Assembly: GCA_003669585.1 (NCBI GenBank)
Contig: QWOQ01000005.1
Location: forward strand, 458,502-522,501
DNA: 64,000 nt
From: Planctomycetota bacterium
GTDB lineage: Bacteria > Planctomycetota > Planctomycetia > Pirellulales > UBA1268
Reading direction: 5' to 3'
The notes beneath the pieces were generated by a model. That model had not been told where the DNA came from, made no database searches, and was given only the letters and a program-made list of their open reading frames with translations. Position 1 is the stretch's first letter, and each line of letters begins with the position of its first letter. The translations under genes were made by a program, and so were the position numbers. Positions 4,104-10,813 of this stretch are shown piece by piece.

Positions 4104-5864
4104 TCAGGTTCCTTTGGGCAACGCAGAGGGGCTAGAATCCGAGACTTTCGGCTCGATGTCAGGAATTTTCCTCAACCGAGCGGCTTCAACTCGGCTTCCA
4201 AATCGCTGCGGTGATTCGTCTGATTCGAGGAGTTGAATCGCCTTTTGGATTCGGCCAGTGGCTTCCATGGCTTGCGCCAACGCGAGACGAGCAGGATCGT
4301 TCCACGGTCCATCTGGCGTCGACTGAAGAGTCATTCGCTCCAAATAATCAATTGCTGCATCAAACTGTTTTTCTTTCAGCGTTAAAATTCCGAGACGATA
4401 GGTAGCATCCTGTTTCATTCGTTCGTAGAGTCGTGAAAATATTTCTGCTTGTTGAGGCGGAACTCGTTGCGCAAAGCTGCGAATCATTTCCTCGGATGGA
4501 CGTGCTAAAAGATAGGCACTTTTAGCACCGGAAGGGCCGTCCAAATCACCACGAAACTCGCGCACGCGAGCTGCAAACAGTGGGCGAATAGTCTTTTGCG
4601 TGCCGCTGCGACTCGGTCTACCACCACGAGAGGCATCAGAAAACCCAAGCGTCATGACCGCCAACTCCGAAGCAACCGTATTGGCAATCACTTCGCCACG
4701 TTCCAACCGGTTTCGCAACACTTCAAATGGAAACAACCACAATCCACCGCGATCGGGCGTTTGTTCACCGGGCAGTGATGCTACTGCCGTATTTGCAACA
4801 AACGAAGCATCAATTGCCAGATCAATCCCCATTCCTCCAGCAAGGTTTGCATCGATTGCCGCCATTCGTCTCGAGAGACTTGCCGGCGTGGCGCATACCA
4901 GAGCCTTCACACTGGAAAGTTCGAGTGCTGTGACTGAATAGGGCCGATCGGAAAGGTCGAGCTGCTGTAGGATTGCTGGATCTTGAAAAGCTTCCCGCGC
5001 GGTTGCAATGCCGTGTCCGAGAGGTCCTGGAATGGGCATGCCGTATGCCGAATCAAAAAGATACGCCTCACCCCCTGAAATCAGCGCGGGAATCCATGGC
5101 TTCGAAAGTCCTTGTCGATCTGACGAAGGCGTGGCAAGCATCACTCCACTGAGTCCTGCATGTCGAAGCAATTCCAGAAAAATCCAGGCCCGCTGTGCTG
5201 GGCTCGCACGTCCCGAAAGCACGATCTCTCCTTGAAGGTACCAACGTGAACCGGGATTCGTTGGAGAGGACTGAAAAGGCGGATCGGTGTCGATTGCCAG
5301 CGAACGAACTGTCCATTCAAAGAGTCTTTTTGCCACATCGAGTTCTTCAATGGCATCCCCTGGAACCGTTGATGCTATATCTGCCAACCATCGTTGATCT
5401 CGCAGTGTCACGACATCTGTAGTGGCGTCGAATGTTGTAAGACCGATCGCCTCTTGGCTGACGAATGACTGTAGACTCTCGGGAAGCGATTCCACGAGCG
5501 GATCTACTTTCCATTGTGGGGCAACCTCACCGGCATGGCTCCACTGGTTAATTCGATCAAATACTTGAGTGTACGCCGCTGATTCATCAAAATCGTCAAG
5601 CCTTCCAAGAACGCTTATTGCCCCTTCGAGCAATTGCTCTCGCACTTGGCTTGAAACAACCCGGTTTCTTTGCGAGCTATTTTCGGCCGGCTCGGGAGTT
5701 TTTGAACAGGATGTGTTGCAGATCGCGAGCATCAAAATAATCTTGCCCGCGGATTGTATTGAAGAGAAAAGCGACTGCACGAATACAGAAACTTTTCGAC
5801 CACTGGTTCTTCCATACAAGCAGACGCTCGCCGGTGAGACACTGCCTATTAAAAAGTATTTCAT
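4104..5864 (-). CDS. Hypothetical exported protein or lipoprotein with C-terminal TPR-like repeats. A cysteine-less transglutaminase-like core is possible.
   Basis: 586-aa ORF whose ATG overlaps the kdsA stop (ATGA at 5861-5864). It has a hydrophobic N-terminus ([13 protein letters not shown]) and a TPR-like C-terminus ([44 protein letters not shown]). The middle segment [21 protein letters not shown] resembles a transglutaminase-like core with the Cys position not conserved; this is a weak, by-eye call. Confidence 0.6.
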
Positions 5865-6727
5865 GAATCACATCCTGCCAATCTCGCTTCATGGATGCGT
5901 AAAACATTTTCCAACACTCGGCGAAATTGATCGAGTGGCACCATGTTCTGTCCATCACTCGGAGACCGGTCTGGATCAGGATGGGTTTCAAAAAATACTC
6001 CATCAATGCCGACTGCTGCAGCCGCTCTCGCCAGAGGTTCAACGAGTGTTCGATCTCCTCCAGTTGCACTTCCAAGGCTTGCCGGCTGCTGAACCGAATG
6101 AGTGGCATCAAAAATAACCGGCACCTTCATCGCTCTCATAACAACAAGTCCAGTAAAATCATTCACGAGCCGACCATACCCAAAGAACGTACCTCGTTCA
6201 CACAAAAACGGATCCTGGCATCCGTTGGCAGTCAGCTTATCGACGACGTGCTGCATGTCTGCCGGCGCAACAAACTGCCCCTTTTTTACGTTAACGGCCT
6301 TTCCTGTCAAAGCGGCTGCAATCAACAAATCGGTCTGACGACATAACAGCGCGGGAATCTGAAGGAGATCGCACACCTCGGCAATTTTTTTTGCCTGCTC
6401 TGGAAGATGAACATCGGTCGTTACCGGCAAGCCGGTGCGAATTCGAACGCGGTCAAGCATCGATAGACCTTCGTCAATTCCAGGGCCTCGAAAAGACGCA
6501 CCGCTCGTGCGATTTGCTTTGTCAAACGAGGCCTTGAAGACCATCTGCACGGGAAGACCACGTGCAATCACAGCGAGCGCATCAGCGATCTGCATGAGCA
6601 GCGATTCATTTTCAATGACGCAGGGCCCTGCAATCACCACAAGAGGATGATGAGGGCCACAGCGGTAGGGCCCGAGGTGGGCGGGAATTCGTGCTGACAA
6701 TGTCGACATTACTCCTCTGTGAGACAC
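5861..6727 (-). CDS. kdsA: 3-deoxy-8-phosphooctulonate (KDO8P) synthase
   Basis: 288-aa ORF. Motifs [32 protein letters not shown] and FDATHSVQ are collinear with E. coli KdsA. Confidence 0.93.
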
Positions 6728-7195
6728 GTTGCGTCTCTTTCAAAAACACGAATGAAACGATTTTTACAATGCGACACAAACATCTGATGTCTATCGATCA
6801 CAACAATGAAGTAGGAATTTGTTTGTGCCCAATCTCTCTCTTTTCGCTCTCTCTTTTCGCTCAATCACTTTGTTCCGAGCAGCATACCGAGCAACGACCG
6901 ATTTACTCACTGAGTGACTTGCTAGAACGGGGAAAACGTAGCCAACGATTGGATTGTGATGTATTTTGCCGCACTGTGTTGCAGATTGATGCACTTCAAA
7001 TTCCAAGTCTCTCTTTTGCCTCAAAATCCCATGCGATTGTTTCCTAATGTGCGCGAGGCTTTTTTAATGCTGATTTTAGTACTTCAGGGAATTTATTTAA
7101 AAAAAATAATATTGATTTATTTTTTTGGCACAGGAGGTGCATCCACTTTTAAGAGCGTCAAAGGGATTCCGGCCCTTCGATGCAACGATTTCAAG

Positions 7196-7297
7196 GTGGG
7201 GCCTCTGACGAATTCGAGGGCGCGGTCGCCTTGCCCCTGACCCGCGTTCCTTATGGCAAGATGCACTTGCCGCGTCAGAGGCCCCGCTTTATTTTTT
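7196..7297 (+). ncRNA. Orphan structured element: a long closing helix with two internal hairpins followed by a T-run. It is a candidate 3' end of a small RNA or an intrinsic terminator.
   Basis: GTGGGGCCTCTGACG (7196-7210) pairs with CGTCAGAGGCCCCGC (7273-7287): 13 perfect bp plus G-C and U-G. The enclosed ~62 nt contain sub-hairpins, for example GGCAAG-atgca-CTTGCC. TTTATTTTTT (7288-7297) follows on the + strand only. No convincing + strand CDS lies upstream in the 0.84-kb non-coding region. Confidence 0.35.
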
Positions 7298-7564
7298 CGC
7301 CACATTTTCTTCTGGCGAAAATTTCGCTTCTTTTTTTATAAAAACTGCTGTTGGGCAATTTTTTGAGTTTTTATTTTTAGCCTACGACCTCGCGTCAAAG
7401 CTCTCGTCGTACTTCGATACATTGCGAGCAAGCTGGTTGAGAAGCCTTTTTTAGCTTGAAACCCGTTGAGATTTTGCCGCAATTGATTGAAAATCAAAAT
7501 CTGTCGAGAATCTTGGAATAACACGCGCTCGGCATCCGGTGCGCTTGCGCGGTTTCAATGGATC

Positions 7565-7638
7565 GCCAGCGTAGCTTCAATTGGCAGAGCACCGCATTCG
7601 TAATGCGGGGGTTGTGGGTTCGATTCCCACCGCTGGCT
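7565..7638 (+). tRNA. tRNA-Thr (anticodon CGU)
   Basis: 74-nt cloverleaf folded by hand. Acceptor GCCAGCG/CGCTGGC; D-stem GCTT/GAGC; anticodon stem CCGCA/TGCGG with loop TTCGTAA (CGT at 7599-7601); variable loop GGGTT; T-arm GTGGG-TTCGATT-CCCAC; discriminator T. CCA is not encoded. A T-run follows. Confidence 0.93.
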
Positions 7639-7961
7639 TTTTTCGATGCTCACAAATGAATTGGTTTGGTTGATAAACGAACGGCGAACGGGCAACTAGA
7701 GAACGACACACAAACCTTTTTTGCTCTAAAAAACAGGTTTTCCAAGAAAGGCCTTTGGATCTTGGTCGCTCTGGCCGTACGATACGGACGTTCAAAACAC
7801 AAGCGTACTCAAGCCCGTTCGAAAATTTTTGTAGGATTTGGATTTCGTATCGCTTCGTATGGCATTGGGTATTCACGCTTTATTAAAGATCGAACGAAGA
7901 TCGTCGATCGTCGCAGTAAAATTTTGAACTTTCCTTACCACCTTTTATAGGACTTCGTTTC

Positions 7962-9287
7962 ATGACCTCTGCTGTTGAAGCCGACATTCAATCGATCATC
8001 ACCGGCCACGGACCATTTGGCCCTGCGGAAGTAAAGTCTTTGATCGACTCTGCTGGAACCGACAAAGCGTCGCATCGATCGATTCGCCTCGCGGTGAACG
8101 AACTTGAATCGACCCCCGATCGAAGTCCTGCCACAGCTGTTCGATTGGGTGTGTGCCAGTATTTGCTGGGACGATCCCAGCACGCTCTTGAAACACTCAA
8201 AACTGCAGACGGTGGTGCAATGGCACTCTACTATCAAGGACTTGCCCACCTTGCGACTGAGGGATTTGAGAAAGCCAAAGATGCTTTTTCAGCAGCCGCA
8301 GGGGCTGGGTATGACTCAGTGGCGTGCGTGTTGGGAAAGGCCGAAGCATTGCGTTCCCTCGGCAAGCAGGACGAAGCCAAGCAAGAAATAGAAGCCCTTG
8401 GAACAGACGCTGAATCATCTGCCGACTACTGGTGCCAGCGAGCGTCTTTGCTCGGCAACTCTGTTAGCAAAGCAGCAGAGGTCAACGCTTTTCTTCAAAA
8501 ATCGCTCGCCATCGATTCGGGACATTCAGGCGCACTATTTGCGATGGCTGTTTTTAATGATCGTTTGGGAAATGATGCCGATGCAAAAAATCTCTATCAA
8601 CAATCGCTGAAACGCTATCCGGCATCGATAGGGGCTCTGGTCAATCTGGGCTTACTTTTTGAAGATGCCGACGATTATGCCAACGCACAGCGATGTTATA
8701 AACGTATTCTTGAAACCTATCCCGATCACCCACGAGCGAGGCTCTATCTCAAAGACTCATCCGCATCGAGCGACCTCCTCTTTGACGAGGATCAGCAAAA
8801 GCAGAAGGATCGTCTTGATCAGATTTTGAGCTTGCCGGTGAGTGATTTTGAACTGTCTGTTCGAAGTCGTAACTGTCTTCAAAAGATGGGCCTCATGACA
8901 CTCGGGGATTTGGCCCGCACCAGCGAAAATGAAATTCTGGAAAGTAAGAATTTTGGTGAAACGAGCCTTGTTGAGATCCGGGAAATGCTTGCGTCAAAAG
9001 GTCTCTCTCTTGGGCAACTCGTTGAATCTGTCGCCGAAGTCGAACCGCTTGGAGAAATCATCGAACCGACTGCGGACGAGCAGGAAATTCTTTCTCAGCC
9101 GTTGTCTGAGTTGAACCTGTCGGTTCGAGCAAAGAAATGCACTACGAAGCTCGGCATCCAGACGATTGGAGATTTGGTTCGTCGTACTGGCGATGATTTG
9201 ATGGAATGCAAAAACTTCGGTGTTACGAGCCTCAACGAAGTTCGCGAAAAACTTACCGAACGTGGACTCAAACTTCGCGGCGAGTAG
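7962..9287 (+). CDS. TPR-repeat protein with two C-terminal RNA polymerase alpha-subunit CTD-like (HhH) domains
   Basis: 441-aa ORF. The N-terminal ~270 aa is TPR-like (NLYQQSLKRYPASIGALVNLGLLFEDADDYANAQRCYKRILETYPDHPRARLYL). Residues ~285-352 (nt 8814-9017), LSLPVSDFELSVRSRNCLQKMGLMTLGDLARTSENEILESKNFGETSLVEIREMLASKGLSLG, closely parallel E. coli alpha-CTD [59 protein letters not shown]. A second copy lies at ~376-441 (nt 9087-9284). Confidence 0.85.
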   Translation: MTSAVEADIQSIITGHGPFGPAEVKSLIDSAGTDKASHRSIRLAVNELESTPDRSPATAVRLGVCQYLLGRSQHALETLKTADGGAMALYYQGLAHLATEGFEKAKDAFSAAAGAGYDSVACVLGKAEALRSLGKQDEAKQEIEALGTDAESSADYWCQRASLLGNSVSKAAEVNAFLQKSLAIDSGHSGALFAMAVFNDRLGNDADAKNLYQQSLKRYPASIGALVNLGLLFEDADDYANAQRCYKRILETYPDHPRARLYLKDSSASSDLLFDEDQQKQKDRLDQILSLPVSDFELSVRSRNCLQKMGLMTLGDLARTSENEILESKNFGETSLVEIREMLASKGLSLGQLVESVAEVEPLGEIIEPTADEQEILSQPLSELNLSVRAKKCTTKLGIQTIGDLVRRTGDDLMECKNFGVTSLNEVREKLTERGLKLRGE

Positions 9288-9661: not shown

Positions 9662-10813
9662 ATGGCGATCGCAAATCTCAAAGAAAAGCCTGTTCGAGTT
9701 CTGGCTCGACTTGCCAAGCAATTTGGAGTTCTTGGCTGGCATTCCATGCGAAAAGATCAACTGATTCGAGCGCTTGTTCGAAAAGCAAAGTCGAGGCCTG
9801 TTGTGGTCGCTGGTAACCTAAGATCACAGGCAGGAAAATCTGGGCTTCGAAACTTGTTTACACCGCTCGATCTCGGGGTTTCCCGGTTAAAAGAATCTCG
9901 TACGGCGGTGACGGTGCGGGACGCGGCAGTGACCGAACGTCTCCAAGAGGCGCGAGATCGACTTTCAAAGGCAAAACTTCTGACGACCCGTCCAGAGAAT
10001 GGGCGATCGCACCGGCAACTTCGAGACAGAATTGTGGTGATGGTGAGGGGTCCTTATTGGCTCCATGCGTTCTGGGAAATCACTCCTCAAAGCGTTTCTC
10101 GGGCCCAAGCAGCCCTTGGTCAGGAGTGGCACGGCGCGAAACCAATTCTTCGATTGATCGGTACCGAACTCGGCGTTCCCGGATCAGCTTCTGAACAGGT
10201 GCTTCGGGATATTGAGGTGCACGGCAGCGTTAAAAACTGGTTTATCGATGTGCGTCACCCGCCACTGAGTTGTCGAGTAGAGGTTGGATATTTGTCTGCA
10301 TCGGGTCGTTTTCATTCGTTGGCTCGCAGCAACTCTGTGTCGACTCCTCCACCGTCGCAGTGCGATACTTTAGATGCTCATTGGGGCGATATCGTGGACG
10401 ATTGTGAAAAAATTTATGCTATGAGCGGTGGATTTTCTTCTGAGAACAACACCACCGAACTCCAGCAACTCTTTGAAGAACGCCTTCGCAGACCGATGGG
10501 ACCTCCAGCGACCCGTCGAGCCGGGGATGAATCGGGGCTTCCACTGAGGCGAGACACTCAGTTTCAGCTTCAAGTTGATGCTGAAATGATGATCTATGGC
10601 GTTACTCAGCCCGGTGCCTACGTGACGCTTCAAGGCTCACCCGTGAAAATTCGTCGCGACGGAACATTCCGGGTTCGACTTGCCATGCCGAACAAACGGC
10701 AGGTAATCCCGATTGTTGCCAGCACGTCCGACGGCGTTGAACAACAGACCGTGGTACTCGCGGTCGAACGAAATACAAAATCAATGGAGCAATCGGGGAA
10801 AGATTCCTGCTAA
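9662..10813 (+). CDS. Hypothetical protein with a Rho-N/SAP-like N-terminal motif and a DUF4912-like body
   Basis: 383-aa ORF. The N-terminus VRVLARLAKQFGVLGWHSMRKDQLIRALV resembles the Rho termination factor N-terminal (SAP-like) helix pair. The segment RIVVMVRGPYWLHAFWEI resembles the start of DUF4912 as I recall it. The family assignment has not been verified by search. Confidence 0.6.
   Translation: MAIANLKEKPVRVLARLAKQFGVLGWHSMRKDQLIRALVRKAKSRPVVVAGNLRSQAGKSGLRNLFTPLDLGVSRLKESRTAVTVRDAAVTERLQEARDRLSKAKLLTTRPENGRSHRQLRDRIVVMVRGPYWLHAFWEITPQSVSRAQAALGQEWHGAKPILRLIGTELGVPGSASEQVLRDIEVHGSVKNWFIDVRHPPLSCRVEVGYLSASGRFHSLARSNSVSTPPPSQCDTLDAHWGDIVDDCEKIYAMSGGFSSENNTTELQQLFEERLRRPMGPPATRRAGDESGLPLRRDTQFQLQVDAEMMIYGVTQPGAYVTLQGSPVKIRRDGTFRVRLAMPNKRQVIPIVASTSDGVEQQTVVLAVERNTKSMEQSGKDSC

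What the first reader, a model, noticed from the sequence alone, without database searches (positions are those of the whole stretch)
7962..9287. Free-standing TPR protein with two tandem RNA polymerase alpha-CTD copies
The last ~160 residues contain two copies of the alpha-subunit C-terminal domain. Similarity to E. coli alpha-CTD is striking, including the DNA/UP-element contact region (ELSVRSRNCL vs [10 protein letters not shown]) and the C-terminal ASKGLSLG vs ASRGLSLG.

These copies are attached to a ~270-aa TPR scaffold rather than to an alpha-NTD. Such a protein could do one of three things:
- bind UP-like DNA;
- titrate activators that normally dock on alpha-CTD (a decoy);
- tether TPR-bound partners to promoters.

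Its function is, as far as I know, untested.
Basis: partly seen in the sequence, partly recalled or inferred. Interest (0 to 1): 0.6.

Follow-up and report, generated by a model that had tools for sequence, protein, structure and literature searches.

The report
TPR protein carrying two alpha-CTD domains
This is a real, widely conserved but untested planctomycete protein that joins a TPR scaffold to two copies of the DNA- and activator-binding head of RNA polymerase's alpha subunit; it is nearly always encoded directly behind a tRNA-Thr gene, and it most likely tethers a partner protein to DNA.

Summary
ORF 7962..9287 (+, 441 aa) has two RNA_pol_A_CTD domains (PF03118, E=2e-40). They follow a TPR superhelix of about 250 aa and a 33-residue helix, with no alpha-NTD.

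It is not a mis-split rpoA. It belongs to a large family with a fixed architecture: at least 356 clusters at 50% identity and at least 599 species genomes, in Pirellulales and Phycisphaerae. Databases already name it "alpha C-terminal domain-containing protein". I found no functional study.

Both CTDs are as similar to genuine alpha-CTDs (35-50%) as genuine alpha-CTDs of different phyla are to each other (40-56%). Both keep the R265, N294, G296, S299 and E302 equivalents almost invariantly. Both replace K298 with Thr and A267 with Arg.

New here: tRNA-Thr(CGU) lies 29-323 nt upstream on the same strand in 66 of 75 related loci. Terminators in the gap are rare, so the gene is probably co-transcribed with the tRNA.

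Best reading (about 0.4): a housekeeping adaptor whose two alpha-CTD heads bind DNA while the acidic TPR holds a partner. Decoy, RNAP-accessory and RNA-binding readings remain open.

A covarying RNA of about 105 nt, not in Rfam, lies upstream at 7191-7309.

The parts
7962..9287 (+). CDS, 441 aa: TPR scaffold, long helix and two alpha-CTD domains
   Evidence: ORF. Pfam. A 100%-identity database protein P0001 is named 'alpha C-terminal domain-containing protein'. Full-length homologues start at the same Met.
7962..8729 (+). aa 1-256: N-terminal helices plus TPR superhelix (about 8 helical hairpins), acidic
   Evidence: AF2 helices H2-14 to H239-252 at pLDDT mostly above 90. TPR Pfam matches. Foldseek best hits are CTPR, OGT and APC/C TPR superhelices. 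Family median net charge is -11.
8730..8831 (+). aa 257-290: single 33-residue helix joining the TPR to CTD1, with conserved R258, A259, D265 and a Y/F-D-E motif
   Evidence: AF2 helix H257-289. Column conservation.
8832..9017 (+). aa 291-352: alpha-CTD copy 1, the near-canonical copy
   Evidence: PF03118. It is 50% identical to the E. coli alpha-CTD core. The R265, N268, C269, N294, G296, S299, D259 and E261 equivalents are kept; K298 is Thr and A267 is Arg.
9018..9086 (+). aa 353-375: disordered, acidic, length-variable linker between the CTDs
   Evidence: pLDDT below 50 for aa 356-368. Length is 17-33 aa and median charge is -4 (window -8). Conservation is low.
9087..9275 (+). aa 376-438: alpha-CTD copy 2, the basic variant
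   Evidence: PF03118 best stretch at aa 371-433. It is 40% identical to the E. coli core and 47% to CTD1. The R265, N294, G296 and S299 equivalents are kept; N268 is K/R and K298 is Thr. Median pI is 9.1.
7565..7638 (+). tRNA-Thr(CGU), the conserved upstream partner and probably the first gene of the same transcript
   Evidence: ARAGORN and Rfam. The same tRNA lies 29-279 nt upstream on the same strand in 66 of 75 related loci. A terminator-like site occurs in 7 of 70 gaps.
7466..7494 (+). Sigma-70-like promoter match (TTGAGA-17-GAAAAT) upstream of the tRNA; candidate promoter for the tRNA-Thr plus CDS unit
   Evidence: It is the only + strand promoter-like site between kdsA and the CDS. TTGAC-N17-TAnnnT motifs sit at the same relative place in many related loci. 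This is a consensus match only and is not above shuffle expectation.

Best explanation
The protein is a cytoplasmic, housekeeping DNA-tethering adaptor that is ancestral to Planctomycetota.

Its two alpha-CTD-type helix-hairpin-helix heads sit on flexible tethers. They bind double-stranded DNA through the same face that RNAP alpha uses on UP elements. That face is remodelled: the R265 equivalent is kept, K298 is lost, and Arg or Lys is gained at positions 267 and 268.

The acidic TPR superhelix of eight hairpins holds a protein partner, or mediates self-association. The partner is thereby brought to DNA.

In Pirellulales the gene is transcribed from the promoter of the upstream tRNA-Thr(CGU), so its level would follow stable-RNA synthesis.

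Shown here: the domain identities, the conservation pattern, the constant architecture and the tRNA linkage. Inferred: DNA binding, partner binding by the TPR, and co-transcription.
For: - Domains and fold: PF03118 twice at E=2e-40 plus TPRs; AF2 pLDDT 87 with separate, flexibly linked modules.
- Selection is strongest on the CTDs. Mean top-residue frequency is 0.94 (CTD1) and 0.90 (CTD2), against 0.77 for the TPR, in 119 homologues.
- The purely functional DNA-contact residue R265 is 42/42 and 54/54 in CTD1, and 41/42 and 53/54 in CTD2. N294, G296, S299 and E302 are likewise invariant or nearly so.
- Extra positive charge sits on the DNA-facing helix (A267 to R in both copies, N268 to K/R in CTD2). 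CTD2 is basic, with median pI 9.1, against 6.8 for the E. coli core.
- Both CTDs fall in or at the edge of the range of divergence among genuine alpha-CTDs: 35-50% against 40-56% between phyla.
- The family is a core, vertically inherited gene. It gives at least 599 species-genome matches, spans Pirellulales and Phycisphaerae, has housekeeping neighbours, and has no full-length match on plasmids or phages.
- tRNA-Thr(CGU) lies 29-323 nt upstream in 67 of 76 loci, window included. In 22 loci the gap is at most 60 nt, with Shine-Dalgarno-like sequences but no room for a terminator plus promoter. Only 7 of 70 gaps have a terminator-like site.
Against: - K298 is Lys in all six genuine alpha-CTDs compared, but Thr in 38/42 (CTD1) and 35/42 (CTD2) family sequences. 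By prior knowledge K298 matters for UP-element binding in E. coli. Canonical UP binding may therefore be weakened or changed.
- CTD1 is roughly neutral, and the TPR and inter-CTD linker are acidic.
- The same conserved surfaces could serve protein partners rather than DNA. CTD1 also keeps D259/E261, the sigma-contact determinant.
- No partner is indicated by gene context. The only conserved neighbours are a tRNA and housekeeping genes.
- Promoter and terminator scans are at chance level in the window. The window's own gap of 323 nt is long enough for a separate promoter.
- There are no experimental data.
Confidence: 0.4

Rival explanations
1. Alpha-CTD mimic or decoy. The two heads bind proteins that normally dock on RNAP alpha-CTD, such as sigma region 4, activators or NusA-type HhH domains. 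This would titrate them, or hand them to a TPR-bound partner, without DNA binding being the main activity.
For: CTD1 keeps the D259 and E261 equivalents (D 33/42, E 39/42) and is conserved over its whole surface, not only the DNA face. K298, a DNA-backbone contact, is lost in both copies. CTD1 is within the divergence range of genuine alpha-CTDs.
Against: R265 has no known structural role, yet it is invariant in both copies. CTD2 has lost E261 (E 17, N 11 of 42) and N268, but has gained basic residues. No activator or sigma gene is a conserved neighbour.
Confidence: 0.2
2. Trans-acting RNAP accessory. The TPR docks on core RNAP or sigma and supplies two extra alpha-CTD heads, or competes with RNAP's own alpha-CTDs at upstream promoter DNA. 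Because it would be made from a tRNA promoter, this would give growth-rate-coupled feedback on stable-RNA promoters.
For: Near-canonical alpha-CTD heads on flexible linkers resemble the alpha-subunit design. The linkage to a tRNA transcription unit is conserved. TPR-fold matches include RNA-polymerase-associated scaffolds such as Ctr9, but these are generic TPR hits.
Against: Nothing links the TPR to RNAP; the TPR hits are generic. A/T-rich UP-like tracts are not evident upstream of the -35 motifs of the tRNA promoters inspected. The tRNA linkage is absent in the two distant loci L084 and L085.
Confidence: 0.15
3. RNA- or tRNA-directed function. The HhH heads bind structured RNA, and the protein acts in processing or handling of tRNA or another RNA.
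For: The most conserved neighbours are tRNA-Thr upstream and, in 33 of 68 loci, tgt (tRNA-guanine transglycosylase) downstream. A conserved structured RNA lies upstream in 27 related loci and in the window.
Against: tgt belongs to the widespread tgt-yajC-secDF operon and does not act on tRNA-Thr (prior knowledge). Alpha-CTD is a double-stranded-DNA minor-groove binder in all characterised cases. The neighbours are not retained in distant members.
Confidence: 0.07
4. Annotation artefact: a mis-split, duplicated or decaying rpoA fragment.
For: Some pipelines name homologues 'DNA-directed RNA polymerase subunit alpha'.
Against: It is a single intact ORF with a TPR region in frame. The architecture and length are constant over at least 356 50%-identity clusters. 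Purifying selection is strong. NCBIfam rpoA scores (133.9 and 121.6 bits) are far below the cut-offs (302 and 227.8). There is no alpha-NTD nearby. The context is not the rpoA operon.
Confidence: 0.01

Closest known systems
C-terminal domain of bacterial RNAP alpha subunit (RpoA alpha-CTD, PF03118; e.g. PDB 1COO, 1LB2)
   Same: Same domain family and predicted four-helix HhH fold. Identity to genuine alpha-CTD cores is 35-50%, which is in or at the edge of the inter-phylum range of genuine ones. The R265, N294, G296, S299 and E302 equivalents are kept in both copies, and N268, C269, D259 and E261 in CTD1. The domains sit on flexible linkers.
   Different: There is no alpha-NTD, so it cannot assemble into RNAP as alpha does. 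There are two copies in tandem on one chain. K298 is Thr and A267 is Arg in both. The gene is not in the rpsD-rpoA-rplQ operon.
NusA C-terminal acidic repeats AR1-AR2 (tandem HhH domains; AR2 binds alpha-CTD)
   Same: Two tandem HhH-type modules of about 70 aa at the C-terminus of a larger transcription-related protein, joined by flexible linkers. This resemblance is from prior knowledge and was not tested here.
   Different: AR1 and AR2 are acidic and are protein or autoinhibitory modules of a different Pfam family. Here the modules score as PF03118 and are neutral to basic.
RRNPP-type and other TPR-containing transcription regulators (PlcR, Rap/NprR, AimR; SARP-TPR AfsR)
   Same: The general logic is shared: a TPR ligand- or partner-binding module joined to a DNA-binding module (prior knowledge; AfsR and AimR papers surfaced).
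   Different: Those use HTH or winged-helix DNA-binding domains at the N-terminus and are accessory, often peptide-sensing. This family uses alpha-CTD heads at the C-terminus and behaves as a core gene. No peptide gene is adjacent.
Small stand-alone alpha-CTD-like proteins (NCBIfam NF005841/PRK07758, ~95 aa), and alpha-CTD-like segments in BREX PglW and some beta' models
   Same: The alpha-CTD-type module occurs outside RpoA. Weak matches were seen here: NF005841 at E=7e-12, PglW at 2.5e-5 and PRK14906 at 6.5e-7.
   Different: All of these scores are far below the models' cut-offs. None has a TPR scaffold or two copies. Their functions are also unknown, or unrelated.
E. coli thrU-tyrU-glyT-thrT-tufB operon (protein gene co-transcribed behind tRNA genes)
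   Same: A housekeeping protein gene lies directly downstream of a tRNA-Thr gene with a short spacer and no terminator (the E. coli case is prior knowledge).
   Different: There is a single tRNA here, and the product is an uncharacterised alpha-CTD protein rather than EF-Tu. Co-transcription is inferred, not shown.

Membership tests
RNA_pol_A_CTD domain (Pfam PF03118) | Profile match above the curated gathering score | tested here: met
   136.7 bits against a cut-off of 23.8, in two stretches (aa ~276-352 and 371-433). All ten variant homologues tested also have two stretches.
RNA_pol_A_CTD domain (Pfam PF03118) | Compact four-helix helix-hairpin-helix fold of about 65 aa | tested here: met
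   The AF2 model gives helices 300-308, 314-318, 322-326 and 333-345 (CTD1), and 388-396, 402-406, 410-414 and 421-433 (CTD2), at pLDDT ~82-91. This is a prediction only.
RNA_pol_A_CTD domain (Pfam PF03118) | DNA-binding '265 determinant' (R265, N268, C269, G296, K298, S299 of E. coli) | tested here: inconclusive
   CTD1 keeps 5 of 6 and CTD2 keeps 4 of 6. K298 is Thr in both, and N268 is K/R in CTD2. K298 is Lys in 6 of 6 genuine alpha-CTDs compared. DNA binding itself is not testable here.
RNAP alpha subunit, RpoA (TIGR02027 / NF003513 equivalogs) | Alpha-NTD (PF01000/PF01193) for dimerisation and beta/beta' assembly | tested here: not met
   No such Pfam match in the protein. tblastn with the E. 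coli NTD finds nothing in the window or in the 85 related loci then held.
RNAP alpha subunit, RpoA (TIGR02027 / NF003513 equivalogs) | Whole-protein score above the NCBIfam equivalog cut-off | tested here: not met
   133.9 bits against 302 (NF003513), and 121.6 against 227.8 (TIGR02027).
RNAP alpha subunit, RpoA (TIGR02027 / NF003513 equivalogs) | Location in the rpsK/rpsD-rpoA-rplQ cluster | tested here: not met
   The neighbours are tRNA-Thr, kdsA, Rho_N/DUF4912 or tgt-yajC-secDF. Four annotated genuine rpoA genes show the ribosomal context.
Tetratricopeptide-repeat (TPR) proteins | TPR profile matches above cut-off and a superhelical stack of helical hairpins | tested here: met
   TPR_6, TPR_2, TPR_14, TPR_19, TPR_16 and others are above their cut-offs. 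AF2 gives helical hairpins over aa 1-252. Foldseek top hits are CTPR, OGT and APC/C TPR superhelices.
RRNPP-type TPR regulators | N-terminal HTH DNA-binding domain and a cognate signalling peptide bound in the TPR groove | tested here: not met
   There is no HTH domain. No small peptide gene is conserved next to it. Peptide binding is not testable here.

The most novel reading that the evidence does not exclude
The protein is a trans-acting supplier of, or competitor for, RNA polymerase's alpha-CTD function. It would be made from a tRNA promoter in proportion to stable-RNA synthesis. Its two alpha-CTD heads would occupy upstream promoter DNA or alpha-CTD-docking partners, while the TPR docks on RNAP or sigma. 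This would be a phylum-specific feedback or architectural layer of transcription initiation with no described counterpart.
Probability: 0.15. Interest if true: 0.8.

Novelty: new variant of a known kind. Interest (0 to 1): 0.5.

Why it matters
Alpha-CTD is the classic docking head through which bacterial RNA polymerase reads UP elements and receives activators. Here two nearly canonical copies of that head sit in a separate, strongly conserved protein. The protein appears to be core in a whole order of Planctomycetota and reaches into a second class, a phylum whose transcription machinery is almost unstudied.

If the heads bind DNA or alpha-CTD partners away from RNAP, promoter-upstream recognition in these bacteria involves a player that the E. 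coli and Bacillus paradigms lack.

The tight linkage to a tRNA gene gives a concrete, testable expression model, and the residue pattern gives ready-made mutants: R301 and R389 are kept, and Thr334 and Thr422 stand in place of K298.

The case is also practical. Some pipelines label these proteins 'RNA polymerase subunit alpha', and PF03118 is used as a single-copy marker (PMC3663571). That could miscount in Planctomycetota.

Tried and rejected
1. Locating the organism's genuine rpoA. It is not in the window or in any held locus. No Planctomycete RpoA seed was available for the word-indexed protein search, so the third search was left unused. As a substitute I compared six genuine alpha-CTDs from other phyla.

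2. Gene context as a guide to function.
- Rho_N+DUF4912 is adjacent only in the window's clade plus two other loci (19 of 82 non-self loci).
- kdsA/DAGK and tgt-yajC-secDF are housekeeping genes.
- No defence, mobile or regulator neighbour was found, so context gives no partner.

3. Extra domains in longer or shorter homologues. There are none, only TPR plus two CTDs.

4. Fold search of the model. It returned generic TPR superhelices only and no full-length analogue. The afdb50 library was unavailable.

5. PDB sequence search of the TPR half. It returned designed or generic TPRs only.

6. Phage and plasmid collections. They returned only genuine rpoA in misfiled or chromid records, with no family member.

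7. Promoter and terminator scan of the window. It was at shuffle level, so it is not used as evidence beyond the position of one site.

8. Literature. Seven searches found no paper on a TPR plus alpha-CTD protein. The only relevant DUF4912 mention is PMC13613805.

9. Rfam for the upstream conserved RNA. There was no credible family.

10. Genomic-island reading of the tRNA adjacency. Rejected, because the flanks are housekeeping genes and the arrangement is stable across the order.
Full report
**1. The observation**

The window has an ORF at 7962..9287 on the + strand encoding 441 aa. Pfam reports RNA_pol_A_CTD (PF03118) at E=2.1e-40 (136.7 bits, cut-off 23.8) in two stretches, plus a series of TPR families above their cut-offs.

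BLASTP against E. coli RpoA aligns aa 279-356 to Eco 243-320 at 46% identity (E=2e-19). It aligns aa 365-438 to Eco 241-314 at 39% identity (E=1e-12). All 43 PDB sequence matches of CTD1 are RNAP alpha chains.

An AlphaFold2 model built on 54 homologues has mean pLDDT 87.2 and pTM 0.62. It shows:
- helical hairpins from residue 2 to 252;
- one long helix at 257-289;
- a four-helix CTD1 at 291-352;
- a disordered stretch at 353-370;
- a four-helix CTD2 at 371-435.

**2. It is not RpoA and not a fragment of it**

- No alpha-NTD family matches the protein.
- NCBIfam rpoA equivalogs score 122-134 bits against cut-offs of 228-302.
- tblastn with the E. coli NTD finds nothing in the window or in any of the 85 related loci then held.
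- Four annotated genuine rpoA genes (Comamonas, Sphingomonas, Tsukamurella, Clostridioides) all sit between rpsK/rpsD and rplQ. This gene sits between a tRNA-Thr gene and a Rho_N/DUF4912 gene.

I could not fetch the organism's own rpoA. Its existence rests on the established universality of rpoA.

**3. How big and how old the family is**

The word-indexed search returned 7996 proteins at E<=1e-5. The best 120 are nearly all 439-469 aa and 59-67% identical; one is a 346-aa fragment. They come from Planctomycetota and Pirellulales MAGs. One, P0001, is reported at 100% identity and is named 'DNA-directed RNA polymerase subunit alpha C-terminal domain-containing protein'.

The exhaustive search of 50%-identity representatives gives 356 clusters at E<=1e-30. 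Nearly all of the best 150 align end to end in one stretch at about 440 aa.

These include cultured Lacipirellula limnantheis I41 and Aeoliella sp. SH292, MAGs labelled Bremerella and Pirellula staleyi, and Thermoguttaceae. A search from a 30%-identical member reaches MAGs named Phycisphaerae.

Ten longer or shorter variants carry nothing but TPRs and two CTDs. The family has no full-length match in the plasmid or phage collections. The window's own copy is found in MAG GCA_037128605.1.

So this is a core-like, vertically inherited family. It is already named by domain, and no functional study turned up in seven full-text searches.

**4. What selection preserves**

In 119 close homologues the mean frequency of the commonest residue is:

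| Region | Mean frequency |
|---|---|
| CTD1 | 0.94 |
| CTD2 | 0.90 |
| TPR | 0.77 |
| Inter-CTD linker | 0.67 |

I mapped the family onto E. coli numbering, using a 42-sequence and a 54-sequence diverse alignment:
- The R265 equivalent is 42/42 and 54/54 in CTD1, and 41/42 and 53/54 in CTD2.
- N294, G296, S299 and E302 are invariant or nearly so in both copies.
- N268 and C269 are kept in CTD1. In CTD2, N268 is Lys or Arg.
- D259 and E261 are kept in CTD1.
- K298 is Thr in both copies (38/42 and 35/42).
- A267 is Arg in both copies.

I also compared a panel of six genuine alpha-CTDs, from gamma-, beta- and alpha-proteobacteria, an actinobacterium and two Firmicutes:
- K298 is Lys in all six.
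- Identities between phyla over the 62-residue core are 40-56%.
- CTD1 is 35-50% identical to the six, and CTD2 is 39-44%.
- CTD1 and CTD2 are 47% identical to each other.

Both copies therefore lie in or at the edge of the divergence range of true alpha-CTDs. They share one family-specific remodelling of the DNA-facing surface.

Charge is partitioned between the parts:

| Part | Median net charge or pI |
|---|---|
| TPR | -11 |
| Inter-CTD linker | -4 (window -8) |
| CTD1 | +1 |
| CTD2 | +2.5, pI 9.1 |
| E. coli alpha-CTD core | 0, pI 6.8 |

**5. Surroundings**

Protein-coding context is not stable.
- The Rho_N+DUF4912 gene downstream (9662..10813) is adjacent in 19 of 82 non-self loci. All of these are in the window's clade except L074 and L043, and in L043 it lies upstream.
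- In other Pirellulales the downstream genes are tgt-yajC-secDF (33 of 68 loci with enough sequence).
- A divergent kdsA, often with a YegS/DAGK-like kinase gene, is upstream in 20 of 60 loci. It is also upstream in a Phycisphaerae MAG.

None of this points to a partner.

The stable neighbour is an RNA gene. tRNA-Thr(CGU) lies on the same strand 29-279 nt upstream of the start codon in 66 of 75 related loci, with a median gap of about 80 nt. The window's gap is 323 nt, the longest.

Twenty-two gaps are at most 60 nt. They contain Shine-Dalgarno-like GGAG motifs but have no room for a terminator plus promoter. Only 7 of 70 gaps have a hairpin plus T-run.

TTGAC-N17-TAnnnT motifs lie 50-90 nt upstream of the tRNA in many loci. 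In the window the only + strand promoter-like site before the CDS is at 7466-7494.

I infer that the gene is usually co-transcribed with the tRNA, as tufB is with thrT in E. coli (prior knowledge). The linkage is absent in the two most distant loci examined, L084 and L085.

**6. Mechanism**

Best-supported reading (confidence about 0.4): a housekeeping adaptor whose two flexibly tethered alpha-CTD heads bind DNA through the R265 face. That face is remodelled by K298T, A267R and N268K/R. The acidic TPR superhelix binds a partner or self-associates.

- Shown: domains, architecture, conservation pattern, charge distribution, tRNA linkage.
- Inferred: DNA binding, TPR-mediated partner binding, co-transcription.

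The main argument for DNA binding is the invariance of R265 in both copies together with the gained basic residues. The main argument against canonical UP binding is the loss of K298.

Rivals:
- A decoy for alpha-CTD-docking proteins (0.2). It is favoured by the retention of D259/E261 and by the whole-surface conservation of CTD1.
- A trans-acting RNAP accessory or competitor coupled to stable-RNA synthesis (0.15).
- An RNA- or tRNA-directed role (0.07).
- An rpoA artefact (0.01).

These are not all exclusive, and none can be separated without experiments.

**7. Comparison with what is known**

The protein contains alpha-CTD domains, and it fails every defining test of RpoA: NTD, equivalog score and operon. 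It works most like a TPR-plus-DNA-binding-domain regulator in overall logic, but it has no HTH and no peptide partner.

The tandem HhH arrangement recalls NusA AR1-AR2, but those repeats are acidic and belong to another family. Small stand-alone alpha-CTD-like proteins (NF005841) and alpha-CTD-like segments in PglW or beta' give only sub-threshold matches.

I rate it a new variant of a known kind: a known module in an uncharacterised, conserved architecture. It is not categorically new, and as a sequence it is already in the databases.

**8. Side finding**

Between kdsA and the tRNA lies a conserved structured RNA on the + strand at 7191-7309.
- It has a long closing stem (GUGGGGCCUC...GAGGCCCCAC), an inner stem, two hairpins, an invariant unpaired CCUUGCCCCUGAC, and a 3' U-tract.
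- RNAalifold on 23 loci gives 22 pairs, 14 of them with compensatory changes.
- A covariance model finds it on the + strand in the window and in 27 related loci. It is always upstream of the tRNA-Thr, and it occurs in the loci that keep kdsA or the DAGK-like gene upstream wherever enough upstream sequence is held.
- Rfam 15 has no credible match.
- The promoter-like motifs for the tRNA lie downstream of it, so it looks like a separate small RNA gene.

**9. Verdict**

The finding is real and correctly described. It is not an artefact. It is also not rare or unannotated, and its function remains open.

Interest is 0.5. The most novel reading not excluded is a trans-acting alpha-CTD layer of transcription control tied to tRNA expression. 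I put its probability at about 0.15 and its interest, if true, at 0.8.

Noticed in passing
window 7565-7638 (+), and the same position in 66 of 75 related loci: tRNA-Thr(CGU) lies directly upstream of the TPR/alpha-CTD gene on the same strand, with gaps of 29-323 nt and a median of about 80 nt. It is the most conserved neighbour by far. Few gaps have terminator-like sites, which suggests a tRNA-mRNA co-transcript.
   Followed up: yes
window 7191-7309 (+): A conserved structured RNA candidate of about 105 nt. It has a long closing stem, two hairpins, an invariant unpaired CCUUGCCCCUGAC and a 3' U-tract. Fourteen of 22 pairs show compensatory changes across 23 loci. A covariance model finds it in the window and 27 related loci, always upstream of the tRNA-Thr. 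Rfam 15 has no credible match.
   Followed up: partly
window 9662-10813 (+): The downstream gene encodes a Rho_N (Rho N-terminal helical) domain followed by DUF4912. A 2026 paper (PMC13613805) calls this kind of protein 'Rho-like' in Cyanobacteria, function unknown. It is adjacent to the TPR/alpha-CTD gene in 19 of 82 non-self loci, once in the opposite order (L043).
   Followed up: partly
window 5861-6727 (-); L037 3086-5048; L084 6135-7894: A divergently oriented kdsA (DAHP_synth_1), often with a YegS/DAGK-like kinase gene, is upstream of the family gene in 20 of 60 loci. It is also upstream in a Phycisphaerae MAG. This looks like very old synteny or a shared divergent control region.
   Followed up: partly
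L020 7390-12913 and 32 other loci: In most Pirellulales outside the window's clade, the gene is followed on the same strand by tgt-yajC-secDF. It sits where queA sits in the E. coli queA-tgt-yajC-secDF operon.
   Followed up: partly
window 7639-7961: The spacer between the tRNA and the start codon is 323 nt here, the longest of 67 measured. It has no ORF, Rfam match or + strand promoter-like site that would explain the extra length.
   Followed up: no
window 4104-5864 (-): A 586-aa protein with a C-terminal TPR_19 region lies immediately downstream of kdsA, overlapping its start codon region by 4 nt. The kdsA-TPR pair recurs in 27 of the held loci (three are same-species copies). The rest of the protein has no Pfam match.
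   Followed up: no
proteins P0315-P0317 (about 312 aa): Short family members have only about 3-4 TPRs before the two CTDs, and some are on long contigs (up to 256 kb). The scaffold length is therefore not strictly fixed.
   Followed up: no
phage collection records OR844994.1 (L090), AFYI01000003.1, AGRM01000003.1, CAKLQH020000003.1: Records filed as phages carry ordinary bacterial rpoA, and several are whole bacterial contigs of 150-580 kb. Several 'plasmid' records are chromosomes or chromids with the rpsD-rpoA-rplQ cluster. These look like database mislabelling rather than biology.
   Followed up: no
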